Counted from the stretch's first letter, positions 25,154 to 44,507 are shown. The stretch is DNA of 64,000 bases from Escherichia coli (GCF_003334305.1 NZ_QOWS01000026.1); one strand, 5' to 3'. The notes: generated from the letters alone by a model not told the origin. Translations and numbers: made by a program.

Positions 25154-25220
25154 CCTTGAAACCACTAGCTTACTGATAGTGCTCCAGCAAAACCACGTCT
25201 CTGCCGGGTTTGTCTTTAGA

Positions 25221-25240: not shown

Positions 25241-25327
25241 TTTTTCACGCCCGTGAATTTCCCTGTATCCATCCAGCAAAAACGGGTGTATAAGACTGTA
25301 CATTCATACAGCAAAATAAGTTCTACT

Positions 25328-26236
25328 ATGGCACTGGAAAAAGGAATTGCAGAGTTAGTCGAAAAGTTTATCGCTGCGGGTCGCCCCTCATCGCGTCAAC
25401 AAAGTATTGCGCAGCGCAGGGAGGGCTATATCGCCAGCGCTGTCCTTGCGGGTGAGACAGAAACGCGGGTAGATATTCAGACTATCGAACTTGAAGGGAT
25501 GACCTTACGAATAGTGTCGCCGCTGAATGCCCCGACATTACTCCCGACGATAATTTATTACTACGGTGGCTGTTTTGTTAGCGGCGGGTTCGCAACTCAC
25601 GACAACCAGCTGCGCCAGTTAGCCTATTACGGGCAATGTCGGGTTATTGCCGTCCAGTATCGGCTGGCACCGGAACATACTTTCCCCGCCGCCCATGATG
25701 ATGCGCAACGAGGTGCAGAAATAGTCTGGCAACACGCCGAACGACTCGGCGTTGATAAACAACGTATAACTCTTGCCGGTGACAGTGCGGGCGGACATCT
25801 GGCGCTGGTAACTGCTTTGCGATTAAAGCGTGCTGGCGAGTGGCAACCGGCACAACTCATCTTAATTTATCCTATGCTTGATGCGACTGCGCATTTCGAA
25901 AGCTACATACGCAATGGTCACGATTACATCATCACACGCGACACTTTACTGAGCGGCTTTGAGATGTATCTGCCAGGCATTGAACGCAGGCATCCTGAAG
26001 CCAGCCCTCTTTGGCGCGATGATTTCAATGGCTTGCCACCTGTACATATCATTACCGCTGAATACGACCCACTTTGCGATGAAGGTGAAGCGTTGTATCA
26101 CCGCATGACAGGGCAAGGAGTGCAATGCACCTGCCAACGCTACCTTGGCGTTATCCACGGATTTTTTCAGTTAGGTGGTATCAGCGAGGCCGCGCGATCG
26201 GCACTACGGGATGTTGCCTGGAGAGCGGGAAGGTAA
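25328..26236 (+). CDS. Alpha/beta-hydrolase, hormone-sensitive-lipase family (family IV esterase)
   Basis: Track ORF 25253..26236 has a GTG start. The ATG at 25328 (MALEKGIAELVEKF...) gives the usual ~80 aa before the oxyanion-hole block. Motifs present are GDSAGG (nucleophile elbow), EYDPLCDEG (Asp) and GVIHGF (His). Confidence 0.8.
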   Translation: MALEKGIAELVEKFIAAGRPSSRQQSIAQRREGYIASAVLAGETETRVDIQTIELEGMTLRIVSPLNAPTLLPTIIYYYGGCFVSGGFATHDNQLRQLAYYGQCRVIAVQYRLAPEHTFPAAHDDAQRGAEIVWQHAERLGVDKQRITLAGDSAGGHLALVTALRLKRAGEWQPAQLILIYPMLDATAHFESYIRNGHDYIITRDTLLSGFEMYLPGIERRHPEASPLWRDDFNGLPPVHIITAEYDPLCDEGEALYHRMTGQGVQCTCQRYLGVIHGFFQLGGISEAARSALRDVAWRAGR

Positions 26237-26251
26237 CTTCGGACCTGGGCC

Positions 26252-26284
26252 CTGAAAAGGTTTTCAGATTGAAAACCTTTTCAG
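26252..26284. terminator. Bidirectional hairpin between the convergent esterase gene and yiiD
   Basis: ctgaaaaggttttc-agatt-gaaaaccttttcag has a perfect 14-bp stem. Confidence 0.7.
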
Positions 26285-26299
26285 TCAAGTAAAACGCCC

Positions 26300-29283: not shown

Positions 29284-30069
29284 CTACGCGTCTTCCTGGG
29301 GAAGAATGATTTCAATTTGGCTGTCTTGTAAGCGTGATTTTAGCGCAGCGGGCGGCAGCTCGTCGGTAAAGAGCGCAGTGACCTGTGCCACGTTACCAAT
29401 TTCAACCGCCGCCGAAGCATGATACTTAGTGTGATCGGCGACCAGCAGAATATTTCTCGCGTGCGCCATCATCGTTTTCACCACGTTAGCTTCGTTTACA
29501 TCAAACTCCATCAACGCGCCATCGCTCTCAATCGCCCCAACGCTTGTTACCAGATAATCAGCACGAAAATCAGCCACAAAGGACGCCGCTGAAGGGCCAA
29601 TGATCCCGCTATTATGAGAGCGCAACGTACCGCCGGGCACCATCACTTCAAAGCGCGGGTTGTGGTAAAGAATATGCGCCACACGCAGGCTGTTGGTGAT
29701 TATCCGCAAATGATTATGGTTAAGTAACGCCCGGGCAACATGCTCAACAGTCGTACCAATGGTGATAAATATTGTTGAACCATCAGGAATATAGTCTGCC
29801 ACCGCTTCGGCAATCGCTTTTTTTTCCTCGGTTTGCGAAACCTCACGCTGCTCGAACGCCGTATTAACGACGCTGGAAGCCCGACCCGCGCCACCGTGAT
29901 GGCGCGTAATCAGGCCTTGCTCGCTTAATTTACGAATATCCCGGCGGACCGTCTGCGTGGAGACATCCAGCAGATTTGCCAGCTCATCAATATTCATATA
30001 CCCACGCTCGGCGATCAGCATGAGGAGTTGGTCGTGCCGCGGGTTACCGGTTAGTTCGGTAAGGCTCAT
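29284..30069 (-). CDS. csqR: DeoR-family repressor of the sulfoquinovose cluster (CsqR)
   Basis: Track ORF 29284..30093. The ATG at 30069 is preceded by gagga. It reads MSLTELTGNPRHDQLLMLIAERGYMNIDELANLLDVSTQTVRRDIRKL, 261 aa (YihW). Confidence 0.9.
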   Translation of the reverse strand: MSLTELTGNPRHDQLLMLIAERGYMNIDELANLLDVSTQTVRRDIRKLSEQGLITRHHGGAGRASSVVNTAFEQREVSQTEEKKAIAEAVADYIPDGSTIFITIGTTVEHVARALLNHNHLRIITNSLRVAHILYHNPRFEVMVPGGTLRSHNSGIIGPSAASFVADFRADYLVTSVGAIESDGALMEFDVNEANVVKTMMAHARNILLVADHTKYHASAAVEIGNVAQVTALFTDELPPAALKSRLQDSQIEIILPQEDA

Positions 30070-30102
30070 GAAAATTCCTCGAAAAACCATCACCCTGGCA
30101 TT

Positions 30103-30999
30103 TTATACAAAAAGTGACAAAAAAGATCGGGTTTGATCACAGTCAGGGATCCCGGCTCGTCCACCGGGACGTGTGCATTTTAACGCCGCTACACCGCTGG
30201 CGAAGCGGACTGACTCCGCTAAATCCCCACTTGTTGCCAGCGCCACCGCCAAAGCGCCGTGAAAAACATCACCCGCACCTGTGGTATCTACCACATCAAC
30301 TTTGAAGGCCGGTTGATGCTGACGCCCACCATTTTCCAGCCAGTCGCAGCCTGCGCTACCCTGGGTCACATAGACATGACCATTTGTGAGCGTTTGTGCC
30401 TGTTTTAGCGCACTGGCCATCTCTTTCACGCCCGTTAAGCGCGCCAGACCCGGTTCTGAAAAGGCCGCGTGATCGCTTAATGCCACCAGCTCACTGATAT
30501 CCTGCGGCGTAATGTCCCCGTCCAGAACGGTCATCACACCCGCCTGACGGGCCAGGGTGAAGGCTTTTTTAGCGCCGTCGTGCCAGCGTACATCTGCCAG
30601 CACAACATCCCACTGAGAGAAATCAATTTCCTCCAACCACTCTGCGTCAGGCAGCAGATCCGGGCTGGGGTAGTTAATGATTATCCGCTCGCCTTTGGTA
30701 TCCACCATGATGGCGGATTGCGAAGATTTCGCCTGGTTATACCGTTTGGTGTAACGGGTGTTAACGCCCCAGGATTCCAGCTCTGCCAGCAGGCTGTTGC
30801 CCGTGTCGTCATCACCTACGCGACCAATAAAATCGACCTGCGCCCCCAGCCTTGCCGCCGCAACCGCTGCCGTCGCCGCTGGCCCGCCACCAACTTCCGT
30901 ATAATTTCTCGCCACGTATTTACCGCTCTCCGTCGGTAACCCTTCCACGTAATAGATGCGATCCATCACGGTTATACCTACACAAGCAACACGAATCAT
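30103..30999 (-). CDS. yihV: 6-deoxy-6-sulfofructose kinase (PfkB family)
   Basis: Track ORF 30103..31005. The ATG at 30999 follows aagga. It reads MIRVACVGITVMDRIYYVEGLP...DTTGAGDVFHGALAVAL (PfkB signature), 298 aa. Confidence 0.92.
   Translation of the reverse strand: MIRVACVGITVMDRIYYVEGLPTESGKYVARNYTEVGGGPAATAAVAAARLGAQVDFIGRVGDDDTGNSLLAELESWGVNTRYTKRYNQAKSSQSAIMVDTKGERIIINYPSPDLLPDAEWLEEIDFSQWDVVLADVRWHDGAKKAFTLARQAGVMTVLDGDITPQDISELVALSDHAAFSEPGLARLTGVKEMASALKQAQTLTNGHVYVTQGSAGCDWLENGGRQHQPAFKVDVVDTTGAGDVFHGALAVALATSGDLAESVRFASGVAALKCTRPGGRAGIPDCDQTRSFLSLFV
30109..30118. promoter_or_regulatory. AAAAAGTGAC repeat, copy upstream of csqR (candidate CsqR operator half-site)
   Basis: An exact 10-mer, 40-50 bp upstream of the csqR ATG, overlapping the last codons of yihV. 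Confidence 0.35.
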
Positions 31000-31052
31000 G
31001 GTCATTCCTTAAACATTTTGGGATGCGTTCATTTTAATTTCACCAATTGTTT

Positions 31053-31143
31053 AAAAAGTGACGGCTGTCAATTTTTTGACGATAAATTACAAATACGATC
31101 AAAAACAGACAAGCAAAGCATGTCATAAATGACAAAAAGTGAC
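31053..31143. promoter_or_regulatory. yihV / yihU divergent control region with repeated AAAAAGTGAC and palindromes
   Basis: AAAAAGTGAC occurs at 31053-31062 and 31134-31143. tgtcat-aa-atgaca is at 31121-31134, and aaaaagtgac-ggct-gtcaattttt is an imperfect palindrome at 31053-31076. Confidence 0.4.
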
Positions 31144-31166
31144 ATCACTGTATTCAGGAGAGGGTT

Positions 31167-32063
31167 ATGGCAGCAATCGCGTTTATCGGTTTAGGACAAA
31201 TGGGTTCGCCAATGGCGAGCAATTTATTGCAGCAAGGGCATCAACTTCGCGTCTTTGATGTGAACGCCGAAGCTGTGCGGCATCTGGTAGACAAAGGTGC
31301 GACTCCCGCCGCCAACCCAGCGCAGGCCGCTAAAGATGCCGAATTTATCATTACCATGTTGCCGAATGGCGATCTGGTGCGCAACGTGTTGTTCGGTGAA
31401 AACGGCGTTTGCGAAGGCTTATCTACCGATGCGCTGGTCATTGATATGTCCACCATCCATCCGCTGCAAACCGATAAATTGATTGCCGATATGCAAGCCA
31501 AAGGCTTCAGCATGATGGATGTTCCGGTAGGCCGTACTTCTGCAAATGCCATTACCGGTACTCTGTTACTGCTGGCTGGCGGCACCGCTGAACAAGTTGA
31601 ACGTGCCACACCGATCCTGATGGCGATGGGCAGTGAGTTGATCAACTCTGGCGGTCCGGGCATGGGGATCCGCGTTAAGCTCATCAACAACTACATGAGC
31701 ATCGCGCTCAATGCGCTTTCGGCAGAAGCCGCCGTTTTGTGCGAAGCCCTGAATCTTCCCTTCGATGTTGCCGTCAAAGTGATGAGCGGTACCGCCGCCG
31801 GTAAAGGTCACTTCACCACTTCCTGGCCAAACAAAGTCCTCAGCGGAGATCTTTCTCCCGCCTTCATGATCGATCTTGCCCATAAGGATCTTGGCATCGC
31901 CCTTGATGTCGCCAACCAGCTGCATGTGCCAATGCCGCTGGGGGCCGCCTCACGGGAGGTTTATAGCCAGGCGCGCGCAGCGGGTCGCGGTCGCCAGGAC
32001 TGGTCCGCCATTCTGGAACAGGTCCGTGTCAGTGCCGGGATGACTGCCAAAGTAAAAATGTAA
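31167..32063 (+). CDS. yihU: 3-sulfolactaldehyde reductase (beta-hydroxyacid dehydrogenase family)
   Basis: 298 aa. [21 protein letters not shown] is a Rossmann GxGxxG motif. Confidence 0.92.
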
Positions 32064-32086
32064 CGACTGGATAAAGGAATAAATGA

Positions 32087-32965
32087 ATGAATAAGTACAC
32101 CATCAACGACATTACGCGCGCATCGGGCGGTTTTGCCATGCTGGCGGTCGATCAGCGCGAAGCCATGCGCATGATGTTTGCCGCGGCTGGGGCACCCGCT
32201 CCGGTAGCCGATAGCGTTTTAACTGATTTCAAAGTTAACGCTGCAAAGGCCCTCTCGCCTTATGCCTCGGCGATTCTGGTAGATCAACAATTCTGCTACC
32301 GCCAGGTGGTTGAGCAAAACGCGATTGCCAAAAGTTGCGCCATGATTGTCGCCGCCGATGAGTTCATTCCTGGCAACGGTATTCCGGTCGATAGCGTGGT
32401 TATTGACCGCAAAATCAATCCGCTACAGATCAAACAAGACGGTGGCAAAGCCTTAAAACTGCTGGTGCTGTGGCGTAGTGATGAAGATGCGCAGCAACGT
32501 CTGGATATGGTGAAAGAGTTCAACGAACTGTGCCACTCACACGGTCTGGTAAGCATCATTGAGCCAGTCGTCCGCCCACCGCGTCGTGGCGATAAATTCG
32601 ATCGCGAACAAGCGATCATCGATGCCGCCAAAGAGCTGGGCGACAGTGGCGCTGACCTCTACAAAGTTGAAATGCCGCTTTATGGCAAAGGTCCGCAACA
32701 AGAGCTTCTCTGTGCTTCACAACGTCTGAATGACCATATCAATATGCCATGGGTGATCCTCTCTTCCGGTGTCGACGAAAAACTGTTCCCGCGTGCCGTA
32801 CGCGTGGCAATGACGGCGGGCGCATCGGGATTCCTGGCAGGCCGTGCAGTCTGGGCATCGGTCGTCGGTTTACCAGACAACGAGCTGATGCTGCGTGACG
32901 TTTGCGCACCGAAATTACAACAACTTGGCGATATCGTCGACGAAATGATGGCTAAACGCCGCTAA
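32087..32965 (+). CDS. yihT: 6-deoxy-6-sulfofructose-1-phosphate aldolase (class I, LacD-like)
   Basis: 292 aa, [31 protein letters not shown]..., with a LacD/tagatose-bisphosphate-aldolase-like N-terminus. Confidence 0.92.
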
Positions 32966-32981
32966 GATGAGGATAAAAGGA

Positions 32982-34223
32982 ATGAAATGGTTTAACACCC
33001 TAAGCCACAACCGTTGGCTGGAACAGGAAACCGACCGCATCTTTGATTTTGGTAAAAATTCCGTAGTGCCGACTGGTTTTGGCTGGTTAGGCAATAAAGG
33101 GCAAATCAAAGAAGAGATGGGCACCCATCTGTGGATCACCGCTCGTATGTTGCACGTTTATTCCGTTGCTGCGGCGATGGGTCGACCTGGCGCTTACTCG
33201 TTGGTTGATCACGGTATCAAAGCCATGAACGGCGCACTGCGTGATAAAAAATATGGCGGCTGGTATGCCTGCGTGAATGACGAGGGCGTGGTGGATGCCT
33301 CCAAACAGGGCTATCAACACTTCTTTGCTCTGCTGGGTGCCGCCAGCGCCGTCACAACGGGTCACCCGGAAGCGCGCAAGCTGCTCGATTACACCATTGA
33401 AATTATCGAGAAATATTTCTGGAGCGAAGAAGAGCAGATGTGCCTGGAATCCTGGGACGAAGCCTTCAGCAAAACCGAAGAGTACCGCGGCGGCAATGCC
33501 AATATGCACGCGGTGGAAGCTTTCTTGATTGTTTATGACGTCACTCACGACAAAAAATGGCTGGATCGCGCGATTCGCGTGGCTTCCGTGATTATCCACG
33601 ACGTCGCCAGAAATAATCATTATCGCGTTAACGAACACTTCGATACCCAGTGGAATCCGCTGCCGGATTACAACAAAGATAACCCGGCGCATCGCTTCCG
33701 CGCGTTTGGAGGTACACCAGGCCACTGGATCGAATGGGGCCGTTTAATGCTGCACATCCATGCTGCCCTGGAAGCCCGTTGCGAACAACCACCAGCATGG
33801 CTGCTAGAAGATGCCAAAGGTCTGTTTAACGCCACCGTGCGCGATGCCTGGGCACCCGATGGCGCGGACGGGATTGTTTATACCGTTGACTGGGAAGGAA
33901 AACCGGTGGTCCGCGAACGTGTACGTTGGCCTATCGTCGAAGCAATGGGTACGGCCTACGCGCTCTACACCGTCACTGGCGATCGCCAGTATGAAACCTG
34001 GTATCAAACATGGTGGGAGTACTGCATTAAGTACCTGATGGACTATGAAAATGGTTCCTGGTGGCAGGAGCTGGATGCGGACAATAAGGTCACCACCAAA
34101 GTCTGGGACGGCAAACAGGATATTTATCACCTGCTGCATTGCCTGGTGATCCCGCGTATCCCGTTAGCGCCCGGCATGGCTCCAGCGGTTGCAGCGGGTC
34201 TGCTGGATATTAATGCGAAATAA
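32982..34223 (+). CDS. yihS: Sulfoquinovose isomerase (AGE/N-acylglucosamine-2-epimerase fold)
   Basis: Track ORF 32967..34223. The ATG at 32982 gives [27 protein letters not shown]..., 413 aa. Confidence 0.92.
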
Positions 34224-34246
34224 CTGATCTGAAAATAGGGTGCGGG

Positions 34247-34292
34247 TTTTCCCCTCACCCTAACCCTCTCCCCAAAGGGGCGAGGGGACCGT
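34247..34292. repeat. boxC-like GC-rich extragenic repeat / hairpin between yihS and yihR
   Basis: tttcccctcaccctaaccctctccccaaaggggcgaggggaccg, with a stem ccctctcccc/ggggcgaggg carrying one mismatch. It resembles the E. coli boxC family (GGGTTAGGGTGAGGGG) as I recall it. Confidence 0.45.
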
Positions 34293-34336
34293 CCGGTGCA
34301 GTTTTTGGGTTTGACATCAGCCTCACGGGAGGCTGT

Positions 34337-35263
34337 ATGTCGTTAATTAAGGTGCCTTGTATGCAAATCACCAATATGCATTGCAGTGGACAGACCGTTT
34401 CACTTGCCGCGGGGGATTATCACGCGACCATTGTGACCGTCGGTGCTGGTCTGGCTGAATTAACCTTTCAGGGTTGTCATTTAGTCATCCCGCACAAACC
34501 CGAAGAGATGCCGCTGGCGCATCTGGGTAAAGTGCTTATTCCGTGGCCGAACCGGATCGCCAACGGCTGTTACCGCTATCAGGGGCAGGAATATCAGTTA
34601 CCCATTAATGAACATAGTTCAAAAGCCGCTATTCACGGGCTGCTTGCCTGGCGAGACTGGCAAATTAGTGAATTAACCGCCACCAGCGTTACCCTGACAG
34701 CTTTTCTGCCGCCCAGTTACGGCTATCCGTTTATGCTGGCTTCACAAGTTGTTTATTCGCTCAACGCACACACGGGTCTTTCCGTTGAGATCGCAAGCCA
34801 GAATATCGGCACTGTCGCAGCGCCTTATGGCGTGGGTATTCATACTTATTTAACCTGCAACTTAACATCTGTTGATGAATATCTGTTCCAGCTTCCGGCA
34901 AACCAGGTTTATGCCGTTGATGAACACGTAAATCCGACAACGCTTCACCACGTTGATGAGCTGGATTTAAATTTCACGCAGGCGAAAACAATAGCCGCGA
35001 CAAAAATCGACCACACCTTTAAAACCGCTAATGATCTGTGGGAAATAACCATTACCCATCCACAACAGGCGCTTTCGGTTAGCCTTTGTTGCGATCAACC
35101 CTGGGTACAAATTTATAGCGGTGAAAAATTACAGCGTCAGGGACTGGCAGTTGAACCTATGAGTTGCCCGCCTAACGCCTTTAATTCAGGTATCGACTTA
35201 TTATTACTGGAACCAGGAAAACCGCACCGCCTGTTTTTTAACATTTACGGACAGAGAAAATAA
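34337..35263 (+). CDS. yihR: Sulfoquinovose mutarotase (aldose-1-epimerase family)
   Basis: 308 aa, MSLIKVPCMQITNMHCSGQTVSLAAGDYHATIVTVGAGLAELTF...IPWPNRI... Confidence 0.9.
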   Translation: MSLIKVPCMQITNMHCSGQTVSLAAGDYHATIVTVGAGLAELTFQGCHLVIPHKPEEMPLAHLGKVLIPWPNRIANGCYRYQGQEYQLPINEHSSKAAIHGLLAWRDWQISELTATSVTLTAFLPPSYGYPFMLASQVVYSLNAHTGLSVEIASQNIGTVAAPYGVGIHTYLTCNLTSVDEYLFQLPANQVYAVDEHVNPTTLHHVDELDLNFTQAKTIAATKIDHTFKTANDLWEITITHPQQALSVSLCCDQPWVQIYSGEKLQRQGLAVEPMSCPPNAFNSGIDLLLLEPGKPHRLFFNIYGQRK

Positions 35264-35461
35264 CTTGTATTGATTAGCAGTCAAAATCATTGAAGAACAT
35301 TTCACTCGCTAAAGGCAACATTATGTATCTTCAATTTATTAAGTTAAAAACAGCTCAGCTTCTGTAAAGTTTTTATATATCAGTTTTATGAGAATCATTT
35401 TACATAAGCCTGTAATAACAGGAAGGCAACAATCTCGTTCTCAACTCTATGGAGATTAGTT

Positions 35462-37498
35462 ATGGATACGCCACGTCCACAGTTATTAGATTTTCAATTT
35501 CATCAGAATAACGACAGTTTTACCCTACATTTTCAACAACGTCTTATTTTAACCCATAGCAAAGATAATCCTTGTTTATGGATTGGCTCAGGTATAGCGG
35601 ATATCGATATGTTCCGCGGTAATTTCAGCATTAAAGATAAACTACAGGAGAAAATTGCGCTTACCGACGCCATCGTCAGCCAGTCACCGGATGGTTGGTT
35701 AATTCATTTCAGCCGTGGTTCTGACATTAGCGCCACGCTGAATATCTCTGCCGACGATCAGGGCCGTTTATTGCTGGAACTACAAAACGACAACCTTAAC
35801 CACAACCGTATCTGGCTGCGCCTTGCCGCTCAACCAGAGGACCATATCTACGGCTGCGGCGAACAGTTTTCCTACTTCGATCTGCGTGGCAAACCGTTCC
35901 CGCTATGGACCAGTGAACAAGGCGTTGGTCGCAACAAACAAACCTATGTCACCTGGCAGGCCGACTGCAAAGAAAATGCGGGCGGCGACTATTACTGGAC
36001 TTTCTTCCCACAGCCTACGTTTGTCAGCACGCAGAAGTATTACTGCCATGTTGATAACAGTTGCTATATGAACTTCGACTTTAGTGCCCCGGAATACCAT
36101 GAACTGGCGCTGTGGGAAGACAAAGCAACGCTGCGTTTTGAATGTGCTGACACATACATTTCCCTGCTGGAAAAATTAACCGCCCTGCTGGGACGCCAGC
36201 CAGAACTGCCCGACTGGATTTATGACGGAGTAACGCTCGGCATTCAGGGCGGGACGGAAGTGTGCCAGAAGAAACTGGACACCATGCGTAACGCGGGCGT
36301 GAAGGTCAACGGCATCTGGGCGCAGGACTGGTCCGGTATTCGTATGACCTCTTTTGGCAAACGCGTGATGTGGAACTGGAAGTGGAACAGCGAAAACTAC
36401 CCGCAACTGGATTCACGCATTAAGCAGTGGAATCAGGAGGGCGTGCAGTTCCTGGCCTATATCAACCCGTATGTTGCCAGCGATAAAGATCTCTGCGAAG
36501 AAGCGGCACAACACGGCTATCTGGCAAAAGATGCCTCTGGCGGTGACTATCTGGTGGAGTTTGGCGAGTTTTACGGCGGCGTTGTCGATCTCACTAATCC
36601 AGAAGCCTACGCCTGGTTCAAGGAAGTGATCAAAAAGAACATGATTGAACTCGGCTGCGGCGGCTGGATGGCTGACTTCGGCGAGTATCTGCCCACCGAC
36701 ACTTACCTGCATAACGGCATCAGCGCCGAAATTATGCATAACGCCTGGCCCGCGCTGTGGGCGAAATGTAACTACGAAGCCCTTGAAGAAACGGGCAAGC
36801 TCGGCGAGATCCTTTTCTTTATGCGCGCCGGTTCTACCGGTAGCCAGAAATACTCCACCATGATGTGGGCGGGCGACCAGAACGTCGACTGGAGTCTCGA
36901 CGATGGCCTGGCGTCGGTTGTCCCGGCGGCGCTGTCGCTGGCAATGACCGGACATGGCCTGCACCACAGCGACATTGGCGGTTACACCACCCTGTTTGAG
37001 ATGAAGCGCAGCAAAGAGCTGCTGCTGCGCTGGTGCGATTTCAGCGCCTTCACGCCGATGATGCGCACCCACGAAGGTAACCGTCCTGGCGACAACTGGC
37101 AGTTTGACGGCGACGCAGAAACTATCGCCCATTTTGCCCGTATGACCTCCGTCTTCACCACCCTGAAACCTTACCTGAAAGAGGCTGTCGCGCTGAATGC
37201 GAAGTCCGGCCTGCCGGTTATGCGCCCGCTGTTCCTGCATTACGAAGACGATGCGCACACTTACACCCTGAAATATCAGTACCTGTTAGGTCGCGACATT
37301 CTGGTCGCTCCGGTGCATGAAGAAGGCCGTAGCGACTGGACGCTCTATCTGCCGGAGGATAACTGGGTCCACGCCTGGACGGGTGAAGCGTTCCGGGGCG
37401 GGGAAGTTACCGTTAATGCGCCCATCGGCAAGCCGCCGGTCTTTTATCGCGCCGATAGCGAATGGGCGGCACTGTTCGCGTCGTTAAAAAGCATCTAA
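35462..37498 (+). CDS. yihQ: Sulfoquinovosidase (glycoside hydrolase family 31)
   Basis: 678 aa. GH31 blocks are present: KVNGIWAQDW, GGWMADFGEYLP and MMWAGDQNVDWS. Confidence 0.93.
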   Translation: MDTPRPQLLDFQFHQNNDSFTLHFQQRLILTHSKDNPCLWIGSGIADIDMFRGNFSIKDKLQEKIALTDAIVSQSPDGWLIHFSRGSDISATLNISADDQGRLLLELQNDNLNHNRIWLRLAAQPEDHIYGCGEQFSYFDLRGKPFPLWTSEQGVGRNKQTYVTWQADCKENAGGDYYWTFFPQPTFVSTQKYYCHVDNSCYMNFDFSAPEYHELALWEDKATLRFECADTYISLLEKLTALLGRQPELPDWIYDGVTLGIQGGTEVCQKKLDTMRNAGVKVNGIWAQDWSGIRMTSFGKRVMWNWKWNSENYPQLDSRIKQWNQEGVQFLAYINPYVASDKDLCEEAAQHGYLAKDASGGDYLVEFGEFYGGVVDLTNPEAYAWFKEVIKKNMIELGCGGWMADFGEYLPTDTYLHNGISAEIMHNAWPALWAKCNYEALEETGKLGEILFFMRAGSTGSQKYSTMMWAGDQNVDWSLDDGLASVVPAALSLAMTGHGLHHSDIGGYTTLFEMKRSKELLLRWCDFSAFTPMMRTHEGNRPGDNWQFDGDAETIAHFARMTSVFTTLKPYLKEAVALNAKSGLPVMRPLFLHYEDDAHTYTLKYQYLLGRDILVAPVHEEGRSDWTLYLPEDNWVHAWTGEAFRGGEVTVNAPIGKPPVFYRADSEWAALFASLKSI

Positions 37499-37543
37499 TC
37501 ACATCCGCCCGTGGGGAAACTCATGGGCAAAGGGAGAACATCG

Positions 37544-38929
37544 ATGAGTCACATCACAACGGAAGATCCAGCAACTTTACGCCTGCCCTTTAAAGAGAAA
37601 CTCTCTTACGGTATTGGCGACCTGGCCTCTAACATCCTGCTGGATATCGGTACGCTTTATCTTTTGAAGTTTTATACCGACGTTCTGGGGCTGCCAGGCA
37701 CCTATGGCGGCATTATCTTTTTGATTTCAAAATTCTTTACTGCGTTTACCGATATGGGTACCGGCATTATGTTGGATTCCCGACGCAAGATCGGTCCAAA
37801 AGGTAAGTTCCGTCCTTTTATTCTGTATGCGTCATTCCCGGTCACCTTACTGGCGATCGCCAACTTTGTCGGCACACCGTTTGATGTCACCGGTAAAACG
37901 GTGATGGCCACTATTCTGTTTATGCTTTACGGACTGTTTTTCAGCATGATGAACTGCTCCTACGGCGCAATGGTTCCCGCTATCACCAAAAACCCCAACG
38001 AACGCGCCTCACTGGCGGCATGGCGTCAGGGCGGCGCTACGCTGGGCCTGCTGCTGTGCACGGTGGGATTCGTGCCAGTGATGAATCTTATCGAGGGTAA
38101 TCAGCAACTTGGCTATATCTTCGCCGCCACGCTGTTTTCACTGTTCGGCCTGCTGTTTATGTGGATCTGCTACTCAGGCGTGAAAGAGCGTTATGTCGAA
38201 ACCCAACCAACCAATCCGGCGCAAAAGCCTGGCCTGTTGCAATCTTTCCGCGCAATTGCCGGTAACCGCCCACTGTTCATTCTGTGTATTGCCAACCTCT
38301 GCACCTTAGGGGCGTTTAACGTCAAGCTCGCCATTCAGGTCTATTACACCCAGTACGTACTTAACGATCCCATCCTGTTGTCGTATATGGGATTTTTCAG
38401 CATGGGCTGTATTTTCATCGGCGTGTTCCTGATGCCTGGCGCAGTCAGACGTTTTGGTAAGAAGAAGGTCTATATCGGCGGCCTGCTGATTTGGGTGCTG
38501 GGCGATCTGCTCAACTATTTCTTCGGCGGCGGCTCGGTCAGCTTTGTGGCGTTCTCCTGCCTGGCGTTCTTCGGCTCAGCGTTTGTTAACAGCCTGAACT
38601 GGGCGCTGGTTTCCGACACCGTCGAGTACGGCGAGTGGCGCACCGGCGTGCGTTCGGAAGGAACGGTCTACACCGGTTTTACCTTCTTTCGCAAAGTGTC
38701 TCAGGCGCTGGCTGGTTTCTTCCCCGGCTGGATGCTGACGCAAATTGGCTATGTGCCGAACGTCGCACAGGCTGACCACACCATTGAAGGGTTACGCCAG
38801 TTGATCTTCATCTACCCAAGCGCACTGGCGGTAGTCACCATTGTGGCGATGGGTTGCTTCTACAGCCTGAACGAGAAGATGTATGTCCGCATTGTGGAAG
38901 AGATAGAAGCCCGTAAACGCACGGCGTAA
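37544..38929 (+). CDS. yihP: GPH-family (glycoside-pentoside-hexuronide) cation symporter YihP
   Basis: Track ORF 37511..38929 has a GTG start. The ATG at 37544 follows agggag. It reads MSHITTEDPATLRLPFKEKLSYGIGDLASN..., 461 aa, 12 TM. Confidence 0.88.
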   Translation: MSHITTEDPATLRLPFKEKLSYGIGDLASNILLDIGTLYLLKFYTDVLGLPGTYGGIIFLISKFFTAFTDMGTGIMLDSRRKIGPKGKFRPFILYASFPVTLLAIANFVGTPFDVTGKTVMATILFMLYGLFFSMMNCSYGAMVPAITKNPNERASLAAWRQGGATLGLLLCTVGFVPVMNLIEGNQQLGYIFAATLFSLFGLLFMWICYSGVKERYVETQPTNPAQKPGLLQSFRAIAGNRPLFILCIANLCTLGAFNVKLAIQVYYTQYVLNDPILLSYMGFFSMGCIFIGVFLMPGAVRRFGKKKVYIGGLLIWVLGDLLNYFFGGGSVSFVAFSCLAFFGSAFVNSLNWALVSDTVEYGEWRTGVRSEGTVYTGFTFFRKVSQALAGFFPGWMLTQIGYVPNVAQADHTIEGLRQLIFIYPSALAVVTIVAMGCFYSLNEKMYVRIVEEIEARKRTA

Positions 38930-38971
38930 TAATAATAAACGACGCCCTGCGGGGCGTTATAAGGAGTGATT

Positions 38972-40375
38972 ATGTCTGACCATAATCCACTGACATTAAA
39001 ACTGAATCTGCGGGAAAAAATCGCCTATGGTATGGGCGACGTCGGTTCGAATTTAATGCTCTGCATCGGTACTCTGTATCTCCTCAAATTTTATACCGAT
39101 GAATTAGGGATGCCTGCTTACTATGGCGGGATTATCTTTCTGGTGGCGAAGTTTTTTACCGCGTTTACCGATATGCTCACCGGATTTTTACTCGACTCGC
39201 GGAAAAATATTGGGCCTAAAGGCAAATTTCGTCCCTTTATTTTATATGCAGCGGTTCCGGCGGCGTTAATTGCAACGCTCCAGTTTATCGCCACCACCTT
39301 TTGTTTGCCGGTTAAAACGACGATTGCCACCGCGCTGTTTATGATGTTTGGACTTTCATACAGTCTGATGAACTGCTCGTATGGTGCGATGATCCCGGCA
39401 ATTACCAAAAACCCGAATGAGCGCGCGCAGCTCGCGGCTTACCGCCAGGGTGGTGCAACCATAGGGCTATTGATTTGTACCGTGGCGTTTATTCCGTTGC
39501 AGTCGCTTTTTTCTGACTCAACCGTCGGTTATGCCTGTGCGGCACTTATGTTCTCCATTGGCGGCTTTATTTTTATGATGCTGTGCTACAGAGGCGTCAA
39601 AGAGCATTATGTGGACACAGCGCCAACCGGACATAAAGCCAGTATTCTCAAATCTTTTTGCGCGATATTTCGTAATCCACCATTGCTGGTTTTATGCATT
39701 GCTAACCTGTGTACTCTGGCGGCATTTAATATCAAACTGGCGATTCAGGTCTATTACACCCAGTATGTGCTGAATGATATTAATTTATTGTCGTGGATGG
39801 GATTCTTCAGTATGGGATGCATCCTCGTCGGCGTATTACTGGTGCCAGTAACTGTAAAATGTTTTGGTAAAAAACAGGTTTATTTAGCTGGCATGGTGCT
39901 ATGGGCGGTGGGTGATATCCTGAATTATTTCTGGGGAAGTAACTCTTTCACTTTCGTCATGTTCTCTTGTGTCGCCTTTTTTGGCACGGCCTTTGTAAAC
40001 AGCCTGAACTGGGCACTGGTACCAGATACCGTAGATTACGGTGAATGGAAAACCGGTATTCGTGCCGAAGGTTCTGTTTATACCGGTTATACCTTCTTTC
40101 GTAAAATTTCTGCCGCACTTGCTGGCTTCTTGCCAGGCATTATGCTGACGCAAATTGGTTATGTTCCCAACATCGCGCAAAGCGATGCGACATTACAGGG
40201 TTTGCGTCAGCTCATTTTTATCTGGCCTTGTGCACTGGCAATTATTGCTGCATTGACGATGGGATTCTTTTACACACTCAATGAAAAACGGTTTGCATTG
40301 ATTATTGAGGAAATCAACCAACGCAAAAATAAAGAGATGGCGACAGAAGAAAAAACGGCTTCCGTAACGTTATAA
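38972..40375 (+). CDS. yihO: GPH-family cation symporter YihO (paralogue of YihP)
   Basis: Track ORF 38966..40375. The ATG at 38972 follows aaggag. It reads MSDHNPLTLKLNLREKIAYGMGDVGSN..., 467 aa. Confidence 0.9.
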   Translation: MSDHNPLTLKLNLREKIAYGMGDVGSNLMLCIGTLYLLKFYTDELGMPAYYGGIIFLVAKFFTAFTDMLTGFLLDSRKNIGPKGKFRPFILYAAVPAALIATLQFIATTFCLPVKTTIATALFMMFGLSYSLMNCSYGAMIPAITKNPNERAQLAAYRQGGATIGLLICTVAFIPLQSLFSDSTVGYACAALMFSIGGFIFMMLCYRGVKEHYVDTAPTGHKASILKSFCAIFRNPPLLVLCIANLCTLAAFNIKLAIQVYYTQYVLNDINLLSWMGFFSMGCILVGVLLVPVTVKCFGKKQVYLAGMVLWAVGDILNYFWGSNSFTFVMFSCVAFFGTAFVNSLNWALVPDTVDYGEWKTGIRAEGSVYTGYTFFRKISAALAGFLPGIMLTQIGYVPNIAQSDATLQGLRQLIFIWPCALAIIAALTMGFFYTLNEKRFALIIEEINQRKNKEMATEEKTASVTL

Positions 40376-40442
40376 ATGTCAATAGCCGCTATTTCCATCC
40401 TGGTGGGTGGCGGCCTCCCTACGTTTAAAAAATGGACTTATT

Positions 40443-41135
40443 ATGAAAAAGATTAATGCAATAATTTTATTATCTTCTCTGACCTCTGCCTCGGTATTTG
40501 CTGGCGCATACGTCGAAAACAGGGAGGCATATAATCTTGCCTCCGATCAGGGCGAGGTTATGCTACGTGTGGGTTATAACTTCGATATGGGCGCGGGTAT
40601 TATGTTAACCAATACCTACACCTTTCAGCGAGAAGATGAACTAAAACATGGCTATAATGAAATTGAAGGTTGGTATCCTTTATTCAAACCAACCGATAAA
40701 TTAACCATCCAGCCCGGTGGCTTAATTAATGATAAGAGTATCGGTTCGGGTGGTGCAGTGTATCTGGACGTCAACTATAAATTTGTACCATGGTTTAATC
40801 TGACAGTACGAAATCGCTATAACCATAATAACTATAGTTCAACAGATTTGAGCGGGGAACTGGATAATAATGACACCTATGAAATTGGCACCTACTGGAA
40901 TTTTAAAATCACCGATAAATTTTCCTATACATTTGAGCCACATTACTTCATGCGAGTGAATGACTTTAATAGTAGCAACGGGAAAGATCATCATTGGGAA
41001 ATCACTAACACCTTCCGTTACCGTATTAATGAACACTGGCTCCCTTATTTCGAATTGCGCTGGTTAGACCGCAACGTCGAACCGTACCACCGCGAGCAAA
41101 ACCAGATCCGTATCGGGACGAAGTATTTCTTCTGA
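40443..41135 (+). CDS. ompL: Outer-membrane porin OmpL
   Basis: Track ORF 40407..41135. The ATG at 40443 gives MKKINAIILLSSLTSASVFA (signal peptide). The protein has alternating beta-strand character and the terminal ...IRIGTKYFF. 230 aa. Confidence 0.9.
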   Translation: MKKINAIILLSSLTSASVFAGAYVENREAYNLASDQGEVMLRVGYNFDMGAGIMLTNTYTFQREDELKHGYNEIEGWYPLFKPTDKLTIQPGGLINDKSIGSGGAVYLDVNYKFVPWFNLTVRNRYNHNNYSSTDLSGELDNNDTYEIGTYWNFKITDKFSYTFEPHYFMRVNDFNSSNGKDHHWEITNTFRYRINEHWLPYFELRWLDRNVEPYHREQNQIRIGTKYFF

Positions 41136-41142
41136 TGTGAAA

Positions 41143-41220
<78 letters not shown>

Positions 41221-41225
41221 ATTAA

Positions 41226-42491
41226 TTAAGCTTCAGCCGCCAGCATCTCTTTCTTACGTTGGCTAATACGCTTAACCAGCATTACGGAAACCACCGCACC
41301 ACAGAATGCGAAGCAGGCCATAATGCCAAACACGATTTTGTAGCCAATAATCCCCGGATTTAAATCCAGAATGTAGCCATACAGACTGAAGCAGAACATC
41401 GCCGGGGCGTAACCAATAAAGCTACCCAACGCCATCGCCGCGCCTGTTTTATTTTCAGCAATTTTTGCTTCGCCGATAGGTGCAAAAAATACGGCTCGCT
41501 GTGTAAAGACTATCGCGCCAAAGCCCAGCGTACATGCCATCCCTAAATAGACCGGCATACTTTCGTGCGGCAGCATAATCAACAGTACGAGCGCAGCGGT
41601 ACTGATGATAAAGGTGTAGCATAGATATTTACTCGGCGATTTCAGGATCTTATCTGAAATCATGCCACCAATCGGTCCACCAATCATTTTCAGACAGTAT
41701 TGGTTAATGATGCCGTAAGCCCCCACCAGCGCAACGGGCAATAGATAGATGTTTTTCAGGAATGGAATGAAGAATGTCAGGCCACAGTAAACCGCGTAAA
41801 CGAAGAAGACGTTAAAAGCGATAAGCCAGATGGTTTTGTCTCTCAGCACCGAGGTCATACTGGTGTTTTGCGATGCTCCGTCTTCTTTTTTCACCTCAAC
41901 GGACGGTGCCTCTTCTTTGTCATTCAGGACAAAGAAAATAATAATGCCTACGGCAATCACAATAAGGGAATAGAACCAGATGCCTGCTTTAAAACCCAAT
42001 AAGCCACTGCCAAACCAGGTAAATACTGCCAACGCAGAAAATGCCACCACGGTATCGACAATGCCACGCCCTGTTTCGAAGAAGCCAAACAACCGACCTT
42101 GTTGTTCGCTATTGCCCAATCGACTTACCGACTTGAGCAAGACCGGCCAGTTCATCATGTCGCAAGTAACGCCAAATAGCGCCCAGACAAAGAGGATGCC
42201 CCAATACCCCGGCATTGTCGTCAAATAAACACCCAGTAATCCTGTCGCAATGAGTGAGAATGACATGGTGTATCTGCGCGGTAGTTTATCGGCAAAATAA
42301 ATAGACAGAAAAAAACCCACTGTCGTGACAAATGAGTTTACCGACATAGCATTACCAATTTGACCATTGGTCAAATGGAAATATTCCTGCATCGGGATAT
42401 AAAACGCATCTTTCAGCGACGGTAATTTATAAATTGTACCGCCACACAATGTTAATAGACTAAATAACGCCCATTTCTTTTTCGTGAGCAT
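41226..42491 (-). CDS. yihN: MFS transporter YihN (substrate unknown)
   Basis: 421 aa, 12 predicted TM segments, MLTKKKWALFSLLTLCGGTIYKLPSLKDAFYIPMQEYFHLTNGQIGN... Confidence 0.88.
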   Translation of the reverse strand: MLTKKKWALFSLLTLCGGTIYKLPSLKDAFYIPMQEYFHLTNGQIGNAMSVNSFVTTVGFFLSIYFADKLPRRYTMSFSLIATGLLGVYLTTMPGYWGILFVWALFGVTCDMMNWPVLLKSVSRLGNSEQQGRLFGFFETGRGIVDTVVAFSALAVFTWFGSGLLGFKAGIWFYSLIVIAVGIIIFFVLNDKEEAPSVEVKKEDGASQNTSMTSVLRDKTIWLIAFNVFFVYAVYCGLTFFIPFLKNIYLLPVALVGAYGIINQYCLKMIGGPIGGMISDKILKSPSKYLCYTFIISTAALVLLIMLPHESMPVYLGMACTLGFGAIVFTQRAVFFAPIGEAKIAENKTGAAMALGSFIGYAPAMFCFSLYGYILDLNPGIIGYKIVFGIMACFAFCGAVVSVMLVKRISQRKKEMLAAEA

Positions 42492-44316: not shown

Positions 44317-44456
44317 GATGAAGCATCTTACGCTTACGCCAAAAAAGAAAGCAATTAACGGCGTATGACTTTGCAGATAATTGTGACAAAGCTCTCTATT
44401 GACGTAATCCCAGACTTATAAGGGAGATACTCGCATTGGTGTGCGCTCACGACAGG

Positions 44457-44490
44457 TAAAAAAAAACCTGCCAGCGATGGCAGGTTTTTT
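44457..44490. terminator. Bidirectional rho-independent terminator downstream of bipA
   Basis: aaaaaaaaa-acctgcc-agcga-tggcaggt-tttttt, flanked by A and T runs. Confidence 0.85.
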
Positions 44491-44507
44491 ATAACTAAAA
44501 AACGAAA

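What the first reader, a model, noticed from the sequence alone, without database searches (positions are those of the whole stretch)
29284..41135. Self-contained ten-gene pathway for the sulfosugar sulfoquinovose (sulfoglycolysis)
The sequence shows a compact 11.9-kb module. On the minus strand are a DeoR repressor and a PfkB sugar kinase. On the plus strand, all co-directional, are:
- a beta-hydroxyacid dehydrogenase (GLGQMG Rossmann motif)
- a class-I LacD-like aldolase
- an AGE-fold aldose/ketose isomerase
- an aldose-1-epimerase
- a GH31 glycosidase
- two GPH-family symporter paralogues
- a small porin

Read as a pathway, the steps are: release the sugar, anomerise it, isomerise it, phosphorylate it, cleave it to DHAP plus a C3 aldehyde, then reduce and export the C3 unit. 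That amounts to a private glycolysis for a 6-substituted hexose.

Established knowledge: this is the E. coli yihW-yihV / yihUTS / yihRQPO-ompL cluster. Denger et al. 2014 showed that it converts sulfoquinovose to DHAP and 2,3-dihydroxypropane-1-sulfonate. Later enzymology covered YihQ, YihR, YihS, YihV, YihT and YihU, and YihW was shown to be the repressor CsqR.

It is the most striking system in the window, but it is already described. All ten ORFs look intact here.
Basis: partly seen in the sequence, partly recalled or inferred. Interest (0 to 1): 0.7.

Follow-up and report, generated by a model that had tools for sequence, protein, structure and literature searches.

The report
Known E. coli sulfoquinovose breakdown cluster
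This is the well-studied ten-gene E. coli cluster that breaks down the plant sulfosugar sulfoquinovose; it is intact here and almost identical to the lab-strain version, so the finding is correct but ordinary.

Summary
Window 29284-41135 is the E. coli yih (sulfo-EMP sulfoglycolysis) cluster: csqR and yihV on the minus strand, yihU-T-S-R-Q-P-O-ompL on the plus strand.

- **Match to K-12:** it is colinear with K-12 MG1655 with no indels. The ten proteins are 97.4-100% identical to the K-12 proteins.
- **Match to other strains:** the DNA is 100% identical to several sequenced E. coli chromosomes.
- **Intactness:** all ten ORFs are intact. Every published catalytic and sulfonate-pocket residue I checked is present.

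1. Six of its ORF starts are over-extended "longest ORF" starts.
2. E. coli YihR has never been assayed. Mutarotase activity was shown only for a 19%-identical Herbaspirillum protein.
3. The import and export roles of YihO, YihP and OmpL are only proposed.
4. The lipase step and gluconeogenesis lie outside the cluster.

Side observation: Salmonella, E. whittamii and 1288 of 5426 complete E. coli genomes carry an eleventh gene, a TauE/SafE-family permease, between yihR and yihQ. This window, like K-12, has an unrelated 133-bp AT-rich filler there instead. I found no paper describing this in the searchable library.

Verdict: already known, low interest.

The parts
29284..30069 (-). csqR (yihW), a DeoR-family repressor of the cluster, 261 aa. 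A second, published in-frame start at Met25 has its ATG at 29997-29995.
   Evidence: 100% identical to K-12 CsqR. Pfam HTH_DeoR plus DeoRC. Met25 and the modelled ligand residues R75, R150, N153, S176, E193 and K215 are present. Function and the two isoforms come from PMC10991401, PMC12608037 and PMC8006165.
30103..30999 (-). yihV, 6-deoxy-6-sulfofructose kinase (PfkB family), 298 aa.
   Evidence: 100% identical to K-12 at both the DNA and protein level. PDB 7ag6 'Sulfofructose kinase', E=7e-200. Catalytic D244 and the K27-N109-R138 sulfonate triad are present (residues from PMC8006165).
30109..30119 (+). AAAAAGTGACA 11-mer, 40-50 bp upstream of the csqR ATG. It lies inside the last codons of yihV. 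Candidate CsqR box (inference).
   Evidence: One of only two exact copies of this 11-mer in the 64-kb window. It lies in the yihV/W region reported to bind CsqR (PMC12608037). It sits about 12-23 bp upstream of the mapped yihW transcription start at -27/-28 (PMC5816610).
31000..31166 (.). Divergent yihV / yihU regulatory spacer (167 bp, AT-rich). It carries repeated AAAAAGTGACA-like units at 31053-31063 (+), 31066-31076 (-), 31101-31111 (+) and 31134-31144 (+).
   Evidence: Differs from K-12 at one base, 31146. Repeats were found. The published CsqR-binding and multi-promoter region is described in PMC8006165, PMC12608037 and PMC5816610.
31167..32063 (+). yihU, NADH-dependent 3-sulfolactaldehyde reductase, 298 aa.
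   Evidence: 99.7% identical to K-12 (A161S). NCBIfam NF012005, 602 bits. PDB 6sm7, E=1e-191. GLGQMG at residues 8-13; R123, N174 and S178 present.
32087..32965 (+). yihT, class I sulfofructose-1-phosphate aldolase, 292 aa.
   Evidence: 100% identical to K-12. PDB 7ag1, E=8e-194. Schiff-base K193 and S226, S227, R253 present.
32982..34223 (+). yihS, sulfoquinovose to sulfofructose (and sulforhamnose) isomerase, AGE fold, 413 aa.
   Evidence: 100% identical to the K-12 protein. PDB 2rgk and 7ag4. H248, H383 and the R55-Q362-Q379 pocket present.
34236..34334 (.). GC-rich interspersed intergenic repeat in the yihS-yihR spacer (core about 34247-34323). It is not part of the pathway and is absent from the O157:H7-type cluster.
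   Evidence: Query positions 4964-5040 hit unannotated places elsewhere in E. coli chromosomes; the whole 11.9-kb query finds a median of 8 places per genome. The sequence is shown. O157, E. whittamii and G50 have about 25 bp here instead.
34337..35263 (+). yihR, aldose-1-epimerase family, presumed sulfoquinovose mutarotase, 308 aa. PGAP starts it 8 codons later.
   Evidence: 97.4% identical to K-12, with 8 substitutions all in residues 170-293. PF01263 and NF011719, 617 bits. No PDB relative at E<=1e-10. Activity is inferred from HsSQM only (PMC5902678).
35264..35461 (.). yihR-yihQ spacer. Bases 35272-35404 are a 133-bp, 28% GC filler. It occupies the place where other lineages carry a TauE/SafE-family permease gene. 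A CCTGTAATAACAGG palindrome lies at 35409-35422.
   Evidence: Identical to K-12. No similarity above chance to the 977 bp found in O157:H7. The palindrome and the last ~55 bp before yihQ are conserved between both types.
35462..37498 (+). yihQ, GH31 sulfoquinovosidase, 678 aa.
   Evidence: 99.7% identical to K-12 (V420I, T563S). PDB 5aed 'Sulfoquinovosidase', 1632 bits. R301, W304, D405, D472 and Y508 present.
37544..38929 (+). yihP, GPH-family MFS transporter, 461 aa. Proposed DHPS exporter, not demonstrated.
   Evidence: 99.3% identical to K-12. TIGR00792, 537 bits. The role is stated as 'most likely' in PMC6278857.
38972..40375 (+). yihO, GPH-family MFS transporter, 467 aa. Proposed importer of SQ and SQ-glycerol.
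   Evidence: 99.4% identical to K-12; 65% identical to YihP. TIGR00792, 529 bits. A yihO deletion abolishes growth on SQ (PMC6278857).
40443..41135 (+). ompL, KdgM-family outer-membrane porin, 230 aa.
   Evidence: 99.6% identical to K-12 (N60T). NF007434 'porin OmpL', 473 bits; PF06178. Induced on SQ in K-12 RNA-seq (PMC12608037).

Best explanation

Proposed sequence of events:
1. Sulfoquinovose (SQ) or SQ-glycerol crosses the outer membrane, presumably through OmpL, and the inner membrane, presumably through YihO.
2. YihQ hydrolyses the glycoside and releases alpha-SQ.
3. YihR presumably speeds conversion to beta-SQ.
4. YihS isomerises SQ to sulfofructose. It also makes sulforhamnose.
5. YihV phosphorylates sulfofructose at C1.
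6. YihT cleaves the product through a Lys193 Schiff base into DHAP and sulfolactaldehyde.
7. YihU reduces sulfolactaldehyde with NADH to 2,3-dihydroxypropanesulfonate (DHPS).
8. DHPS is exported, presumably by YihP.

CsqR represses the divergent yihV and yihU promoters and its own promoter. SQ, SQ-glycerol and sulforhamnose release it from DNA.

Shown for the identical or near-identical K-12 proteins in the literature: the YihQ, YihS, YihV, YihT and YihU activities and structures, CsqR binding and derepression, and the knockout phenotypes.

Inferred only: YihR activity, the OmpL, YihO and YihP substrates and transport directions, and that this particular strain grows on SQ.
For: - Sequence match: 100% DNA identity to annotated yih clusters. 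Gap-free colinearity with K-12 and 97.4-100% protein identity.
- Solved structures of the same proteins: 5aed, 2rgk/7ag4, 7ag1, 6sm7, 7ag6.
- All published catalytic and sulfonate-pocket residues are present (residue lists from PMC8006165).
- Family models pass their curated cut-offs.
- Regulatory spacers are identical to K-12 except for one base.
- All genes are under purifying selection across Escherichia and its relatives (dN/dS 0.01-0.11 in the deeper comparisons).
- Literature: knockouts of yihO, S, V, T and U fail to grow on SQ, and the proteins are induced on SQ (PMC6278857). The whole cassette is induced more than 32-fold on SQ in K-12 (PMC12608037). CsqR binding and derepression are reported in PMC8006165.
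Against: Nothing in the sequence argues against it.

Caveats:
- No growth or metabolite data exist for this strain.
- YihR carries 8 substitutions relative to K-12, one of them (P170T) next to the conserved His169.
- E. coli YihR activity has never been measured.
- The transporter assignments are untested.
- Nissle 1917, which lacks yihOPQRS, reportedly still grows on SQ (PMC12608037). The cassette may therefore not be the only route in E. coli.
Confidence: 0.95

Rival explanations
1. The cluster has another or an additional physiological substrate. One proposal is a lac-independent lactose route. Another is a role in O-antigen capsule formation, as proposed for the Salmonella yih operons. On this view sulfoquinovose is only one of its inputs.
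For: Kaznadzey et al. 2018 report induction of yihT, yihS and yihV on lactose and YihW-dependent promoter switching (PMC5816610). Lactose docks to CsqR models (PMC10991401). The NCBIfam models still name YihS closest to D-mannose isomerase and YihQ 'alpha-glucosidase'.
Against: Kinetics and structures show the core enzymes are selective for sulfonated intermediates and inactive on the glycolytic analogues. All the dedicated sulfonate pockets are conserved here (PMC8006165). No lactose-pathway enzymology for these proteins turned up in the papers I read. The capsule link rests on my own recollection of the Salmonella literature and was not checked here.
Confidence: 0.1
2. The cluster is present but silent or non-functional in this strain. 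It would be a cryptic remnant, for example because the YihR substitutions or an unseen regulatory defect block the pathway.
For: YihR differs from K-12 at 8 of 308 residues with a locally raised dN/dS of 0.26. Natural E. coli do carry broken versions, for example an IS5-mediated deletion from yihR through yihN in strain MB46. The short-cassette strain Nissle 1917 shows no induction on SQ (PMC12608037).
Against: All ten ORFs are full length with no frameshift or stop. The promoter and operator spacers are K-12-identical bar one base. In one search the exact DNA sequence scores 100.0% identity over the full 11,852 bp in eleven listed unrelated isolates, the top five at the maximum bit score, which does not suggest decay. 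The YihR motifs around His100, His169 and Glu273, which I take to be the conserved mutarotase residues, are intact. Mutarotation also occurs spontaneously, so even a weak YihR would not block the pathway.
Confidence: 0.03

Closest known systems
E. coli K-12 MG1655 yih cassette (b3875-b3884; Denger et al. 2014), the prototype sulfo-EMP pathway
   Same: Same ten genes, order, orientation and spacer lengths, with zero indels. 99.2% DNA identity over window 26300-48113, the yih cluster plus flanking genes. Proteins are 97.4-100% identical, and the same flanking genes are present (yihX on one side, yihN on the other).
   Different: Only point differences: 21 amino-acid substitutions in total, 8 of them in YihR; one base in the yihV/U spacer; one base in the yihS/R spacer.
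Eleven-gene yih cluster of E. coli O157:H7, E. whittamii and Salmonella enterica
   Same: All ten genes in the same order. O157 proteins are 93.5-100% identical to those in the window.
   Different: These clusters carry a 291-aa TauE/SafE-family permease gene (PF01925) between yihR and yihQ. They lack the interspersed repeat between yihS and yihR. The window has an unrelated 133-bp filler instead. In Cronobacter, Pantoea and RIT691 the TauE-like gene sits between yihQ and yihP.
Short yih cassette (yihTUVW) of E. coli Nissle 1917 and many ExPEC (Kaznadzey et al. 2025, PMC12608037)
   Same: Same chromosomal neighbourhood. It holds homologues of csqR, yihV, yihU and yihT.
   Different: It lacks yihS, R, Q, P, O and ompL. 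Its four genes are only about 66% identical in DNA to those here (1327 genomes). It is not induced by SQ (PMC12608037).
Variant sulfo-EMP clusters in other Enterobacterales, such as Yersinia intermedia
   Same: Same CsqR-like regulator, PfkB kinase, YihU-like reductase, GH31 sulfoquinovosidase (77% identical to the window's YihQ), two GPH transporters and a KdgM porin.
   Different: A class II (metal-dependent) aldolase replaces YihT, and a fucose-isomerase-type protein replaces the AGE-fold YihS (class II SFP aldolases are described in PMC10665668).

Membership tests
E. coli sulfo-EMP (yih) gene cluster, long form | Ten genes, csqR-yihV divergent from yihU-T-S-R-Q-P-O-ompL, in the K-12 order and chromosomal position | tested here: met
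   Gap-free alignment to K-12 4056625-4078438. The same neighbours yihX and yihN are present. PGAP annotation of 100%-identical DNA names all ten genes.
E. coli sulfo-EMP (yih) gene cluster, long form | Orthology to the biochemically characterised proteins | tested here: met
   97.4-100% identity to the K-12 proteins. Top PDB hits are the characterised proteins themselves.
E. coli sulfo-EMP (yih) gene cluster, long form | Growth on sulfoquinovose with DHPS excretion | not testable with these tools
   Needs culture of the strain. Shown for K-12 in the literature (PMC6278857, PMC12608037).
GH31 sulfoquinovosidase (YihQ) | Catalytic Asp405 and Asp472, plus the Arg301-Trp304-Tyr508 sulfonate pocket | tested here: met
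   All five residues are present. The pocket is taken from PMC8006165. The catalytic Asp numbering is from my own knowledge of Speciale et al. 2016.
SQ isomerase (YihS, AGE fold) | Catalytic His248 and His383, plus the Arg55-Gln362-Gln379 sulfonate pocket | tested here: met
   All present; the protein is 100% identical to K-12 (PMC8006165).
Sulfofructose kinase (YihV, PfkB) | GXGD motif with Asp244, plus the Lys27-Asn109-Arg138 triad in place of the RRS phosphate triad | tested here: met
   TTGAGDVF at residues 239-246; K27, N109 and R138 present (PMC8006165).
Class I SFP aldolase (YihT) | Schiff-base Lys193 and Arg253, Ser226, Ser227 | tested here: met
   All present; the protein is 100% identical to K-12.
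Sulfolactaldehyde reductase (YihU) | Rossmann GLGQMG motif, plus the Asn174-Ser178 and Arg123 sulfonate site | tested here: met
   NF012005 equivalog at 602 bits against a cut-off of 348. The single substitution, A161S, lies outside the listed site.
Sulfoquinovose mutarotase (YihR) | Measured SQ mutarotase activity | not testable with these tools
   Never measured for the E. coli protein; only for HsSQM at 19% identity (PMC5902678). Family membership (PF01263; NF011719, 617 bits) is met.
CsqR regulon (DeoR family) | HTH_DeoR plus DeoRC domains, and CsqR-binding DNA in the yihV/U and yihV/W regions | tested here: met
   Domains found. The protein is 100% identical to K-12, and both regulatory regions match K-12 except for one base. 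The exact operator sequence could not be checked against Shimada 2019, which is not held. The AAAAAGTGACA repeats are my inference.
GPH (glycoside-pentoside-hexuronide) symporters: YihO, YihP | Match to TIGR00792 above its cut-off; substrate and direction of transport | tested here: inconclusive
   The family match is met (537 and 529 bits against a cut-off of 231). Substrates and direction (SQ in, DHPS out) are proposals only and cannot be tested here.
KdgM-family porins (OmpL) | Match to PF06178 and the OmpL equivalog | tested here: met
   PF06178 at 305 bits; NF007434 at 473 bits against a cut-off of 288.

The most novel reading that the evidence does not exclude
The ten-gene K-12-type cluster in this window may be a derived form that has lost an ancestral eleventh gene. 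That gene is a TauE/SafE-family permease. It is still present between yihR and yihQ in Salmonella, E. whittamii and about a third of E. coli long cassettes. By analogy with TauE-type genes in other sulfoglycolysis clusters, it could be the original DHPS exporter.

If so, the textbook assignment 'YihP = DHPS exporter' would need re-testing. YihO and YihP, which are 65% identical symporter paralogues, might both be importers, for example one for SQ and one for SQ-glycerol. I found no paper describing this in the searchable library, but Denger et al. 2014 could not be read.
Probability: 0.3. Interest if true: 0.35.

Novelty: already known. Interest (0 to 1): 0.1.

Why it matters
The cluster is the model system for bacterial breakdown of sulfoquinovose, a major reservoir of organic sulfur made by plants and algae. 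It also feeds DHPS to sulfide-producing gut bacteria. Finding it intact in one more E. coli chromosome adds nothing new: about 72% of complete E. coli genomes carry it.

The points still worth attention lie at the edges of the known system:
- YihR has never been assayed.
- The roles of YihO, YihP and OmpL are unproven.
- The TauE-family gene that K-12 and this strain lack, but Salmonella and a quarter of E. coli keep, has not been studied.

Tried and rejected
- **Retained TauE start codon.** A MAFFT alignment (A1) suggested that the window's yihR-yihQ spacer keeps the start codon of the TauE-like gene as a deletion scar. I rejected this. blastn finds no similarity for 35272-35404. The Smith-Waterman score (20) equals the shuffle mean (20.2 +/- 2.5). 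tblastn with the TauE-like protein finds nothing significant in the window.
- **Known RNAs.** The Rfam gathering scan finds no RNA family inside 29284-41135.
- **Promoter and terminator scan.** It was uninformative. It found 12 promoter-like sites against 14.3 expected. Of the 23 terminator-like sites (13.7 expected), all but one lie inside genes.
- **PDB search for YihR.** No relative at E<=1e-10.
- **Papers not held.** Denger et al. 2014 (Nature) could not be fetched. I did not try Shimada et al. 2019; it did not appear in any library search. I therefore could not check the published operator sequence or any mention of an eleventh gene in those papers.
- **Genome-collection scan.** I obtained wider context instead from YihQ homologues.

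Full report
**1. Observation**

Megablast of the 11,852 bp against 5,426 complete E. coli genomes gives full-length, 100%-identical matches to several chromosomes (strains H15, A7, A28, DETEC-E601 and others). NCBI's annotation there reads csqR, yihV, yihU, yihT, yihS, yihR, yihQ, yihP, yihO, ompL.

The window differs from strain H15 by a single base in 19,852 bp.

Against K-12 MG1655 (locus L002), window 26300-48113 aligns without any gap at 99.24% identity.

| Protein | Identity to K-12 |
|---|---|
| CsqR, YihV, YihT, YihS | 100% |
| YihU | 99.7% (A161S) |
| YihQ | 99.7% (V420I, T563S) |
| OmpL | 99.6% |
| YihO | 99.4% |
| YihP | 99.3% |
| YihR | 97.4% (8 substitutions) |

No ORF carries an internal stop or frameshift.

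The only correction concerns start codons. The curated K-12 starts lie 6-36 nt downstream for csqR, yihV, yihS, yihP, yihO and ompL, and they sit behind better Shine-Dalgarno sequences.

**2. What the genes are**

- DeoR regulator (HTH_DeoR plus DeoRC)
- PfkB kinase
- Beta-hydroxyacid dehydrogenase (NF012005 'sulfolactaldehyde 3-reductase', 602 bits against a cut-off of 348)
- DeoC/LacD class I aldolase
- GlcNAc-2-epimerase (AGE) fold isomerase
- Aldose 1-epimerase
- GH31 glycosidase
- Two GPH symporters (TIGR00792), 65% identical to each other
- KdgM-family porin (NF007434 'porin OmpL')

The top PDB matches are the characterised proteins themselves:
- YihQ: 5aed
- YihS: 2rgk, 7ag4
- YihT: 7ag1
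- YihU: 6sm7
- YihV: 7ag6

I then checked the residues that Sharma et al. 2021 (PMC8006165) list as catalytic or as forming the sulfonate pockets. All are present:
- YihQ: R301, W304, Y508, plus D405 and D472
- YihS: H248, H383, plus R55, Q362, Q379
- YihV: D244, plus K27, N109, R138
- YihT: K193, R253, S226, S227
- YihU: R123, N174, S178, and GLGQMG at residues 8-13

**3. Regulation**

The regulatory DNA is essentially that of K-12. The 167-bp yihV/yihU spacer differs at one base (31146), and the csqR-proximal region is identical.

According to the literature:
- CsqR binds the yihU/V spacer and the region upstream of its own gene.
- SQ, SQ-glycerol and sulforhamnose release it (PMC8006165; PMC12608037).
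- Several promoters and CRP sites have been mapped there (PMC5816610).
- CsqR is made in two forms, the shorter one starting at Met25 (PMC10991401). Met25 is present here.

I noticed that the 11-mer AAAAAGTGACA has only two exact copies in the 64-kb window. One is at 30109-30119, 40-50 bp upstream of the csqR ATG. The other is at 31134-31144 in the yihV/U spacer. One-mismatch copies lie at 31053 and 31066 on the opposite strand. That makes it a plausible CsqR box. This is my inference only, because Shimada et al. 2019 was not available to compare.

**4. Mechanism**

The best explanation is the published sulfo-EMP pathway.
1. SQ or SQ-glycerol enters the cell, with OmpL and YihO as the proposed route.
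2. YihQ releases alpha-SQ.
3. YihR is presumed to anomerise it.
4. YihS makes sulfofructose.
5. YihV phosphorylates it.
6. YihT cleaves it to DHAP and sulfolactaldehyde.
7. YihU reduces the aldehyde to DHPS.
8. DHPS leaves the cell, with YihP as the proposed exporter.

The enzymatic steps for YihQ, S, V, T and U, and the repressor function, are experimentally established for proteins identical or nearly identical to those here.

Further support from the literature:
- K-12 knockouts of yihO, S, V, T and U do not grow on SQ (PMC6278857).
- The whole cassette is strongly induced on SQ (PMC12608037).

Comparison with O157:H7, E. whittamii and two unnamed Enterobacteriaceae shows purifying selection on all ten genes (dN/dS 0.01-0.11 in the deeper comparisons).

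**5.

- **YihR.** E. coli YihR has not been characterised. Abayakoon et al. 2018 state that YihR gave only poor protein. They measured activity on Herbaspirillum HsSQM, which is 19% identical (PMC5902678). YihR has no PDB relative at E<=1e-10.
- **Transporters.** The roles of YihO, YihP and OmpL are proposals. For YihP the wording in PMC6278857 is 'most likely'.
- **'Self-contained'.** This is approximate. Sulfolipid deacylation occurs outside the cell (PMC8006165 Fig. 1 legend). Growth on SQ requires gluconeogenesis for hexose phosphates (PMC12608037).

**6. Population context**

| Form | Genomes, of 5,426 complete E. coli |
|---|---|
| Long cluster, at least 80% of it in one piece | 3,884 |
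| Four-gene csqR-yihV-yihU-yihT module, about 66% identical in DNA | 1,327 |

The second row corresponds to the 'short cassette' described by Kaznadzey et al. 2025 (PMC12608037). Broken long forms also occur, for example an IS5-associated deletion from yihR through yihN in strain MB46.

**7. Side observation: an eleventh gene**

In E. coli O157:H7 a 291-aa TauE/SafE-family permease gene (PF01925) lies between yihR and yihQ. In all, 1,288 complete E. coli genomes carry it.

| Organism (locus) | TauE-like gene | Other differences |
|---|---|---|
| E. whittamii (L005) | between yihR and yihQ | |
| Unnamed enterobacterium G50 (L006) | between yihR and yihQ | lacks yihP |
| Salmonella enterica (L009) | between yihR and yihQ | |
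| RIT691 (L007) | between yihQ and yihP | |
| Cronobacter (L012) | between yihQ and yihP | |
| Pantoea (L013) | between yihQ and yihP | no KdgM-family porin gene called downstream |
| Citrobacter meridianamericanus (L010) | absent | |
| Enterobacter cloacae complex (L011) | absent | also lacks yihR |
| Yersinia intermedia (L014) | absent | different aldolase and isomerase |

The O157 and Salmonella TauE-like proteins are 85% identical. That is similar to YihQ (86%) from the same two loci. It fits co-inheritance with the cluster, and so a secondary loss in the K-12 and window type.

In the window, a 133-bp, 28% GC segment (35272-35404) occupies the gene's place. It shows no similarity above chance to the 977 bp it replaces. 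An early impression from a MAFFT alignment that the start codon survives did not hold up.

TauE-type permeases are routinely proposed as organosulfonate exporters in other sulfoglycolysis clusters (PMC8873060, PMC7491151).

I found no paper in the searchable library that mentions this gene in the enterobacterial yih cluster. The original Denger et al. 2014 paper is not held, so it may have been noted there.

**8. YihR evolves fastest**

YihR identity falls much faster than that of its neighbours:

| Comparison | YihR identity | YihS identity |
|---|---|---|
| E. whittamii (against the window) | 89% | 98% |
| Salmonella (against O157) | 71% | 93% |
| Cronobacter (against O157) | 56% | 85% |

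The other cluster proteins of E. whittamii are 94-99% identical to the window.

Against K-12 it has 8 non-synonymous and 9 synonymous differences (dN/dS 0.26). It remains under purifying selection in the deeper comparisons (dN/dS about 0.1).

One substitution, P170T, sits next to His169. The motifs around His100, His169 and Glu273 are intact. I take these to be the conserved mutarotase residues, judged from the sequence and not from an alignment.

**9. Verdict**

The system is already known in detail and is identical in structure to the K-12 prototype. Interest is low.

The most novel reading that remains open is that the K-12-type cluster is a TauE-less derivative, and that the exporter assignment deserves re-testing.

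Noticed in passing
window 35264-35461 (compare L003 6409-7451, L009 7031-7906): K-12 and this window lack a TauE/SafE-family permease gene. That gene sits between yihR and yihQ in O157:H7, E. whittamii, Salmonella and 1288 of 5426 complete E. coli genomes. Here a 133-bp, 28% GC filler (35272-35404) with no detectable homology takes its place. I found no paper describing it in the searchable library.
   Followed up: yes
window 34337-35263 (yihR): YihR is the fastest-evolving member of the cluster. It has 8 amino-acid changes against K-12, all in residues 170-293, including P170T next to His169. Identity is 89% in E. whittamii and 71% in Salmonella, against 93-99% for its neighbours. The E. coli protein has never been assayed.
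   Followed up: partly
window 30109-30119, 31053-31063, 31066-31076 (-), 31134-31144: AAAAAGTGACA occurs exactly only twice in 64 kb, both times in the two regions reported to bind CsqR. One-mismatch copies lie nearby. It is a candidate CsqR operator unit, but I could not check it against the published footprint.
   Followed up: partly
window 34236-34334: A GC-rich interspersed repeat (core about 34247-34323, with a CCCCTC...GAGGGG hairpin) fills the yihS-yihR spacer. It recurs at unannotated places elsewhere in E. coli chromosomes; the whole 11.9-kb query finds a median of 8 places per genome. It is absent from the O157-type cluster. From memory it resembles the boxC repeat family.
   Followed up: partly
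window 35409-35422: A perfect palindrome CCTGTAATAACAGG lies about 40 bp upstream of the yihQ start. It is conserved in both the K-12-type and the O157-type cluster even though the upstream sequence differs. It could be a protein-binding site or an RNA hairpin.
   Followed up: no
window 41226-42491 (yihN, minus strand): yihN is intact here (421 aa). In strain H15, which otherwise differs by one base in 19.9 kb, that one base turns codon 35 (Gln) into a stop, and the gene is annotated as a pseudogene.
   Followed up: yes
window 41140-41225: REP-type palindromic repeats (GCCGGATGCGGCG...CGCCTTATCCGGCC) fill the 90-bp gap between the convergent ompL and yihN genes.
   Followed up: no
window 24290-26299: About 2 kb next to fabY replaces 474 bp of K-12. 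It includes an ORF annotated as an alpha/beta hydrolase in strain H15 (about 25328-26236, plus strand).
   Followed up: no
window 48114-48318: The stretch just downstream of glnA, where K-12 has the sRNA GlnZ, does not align with K-12 (205 bp here against 172 bp), although both flanks are 99-100% identical.
   Followed up: no
window 8796-8866, 17942-18000, 44455-44523, 46413-46520, 53443-53696, 54725-54843: Rfam hits outside the cluster: naRNA4, a SECIS element, STnc370, ES222, CsrC and Spot 42. There are none inside 29284-41135.
   Followed up: no
L006 (Enterobacteriaceae bacterium G50), L011 (Enterobacter cloacae complex), L014 (Yersinia intermedia): Natural variants of the cluster. G50 has the TauE-like gene but no yihP. 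The Enterobacter cluster lacks yihR. The Yersinia cluster swaps in a class II aldolase and a fucose-isomerase-type protein.
   Followed up: partly
E. coli genome hits H108-H114 (for example NZ_CP025328.1 4446632-4450188): In 1327 E. coli genomes the only match is a four-gene csqR/kinase/reductase/aldolase module about 66% identical in DNA. It is the published 'short cassette', and it is a deeply divergent copy, not a truncated long cassette.
   Followed up: partly
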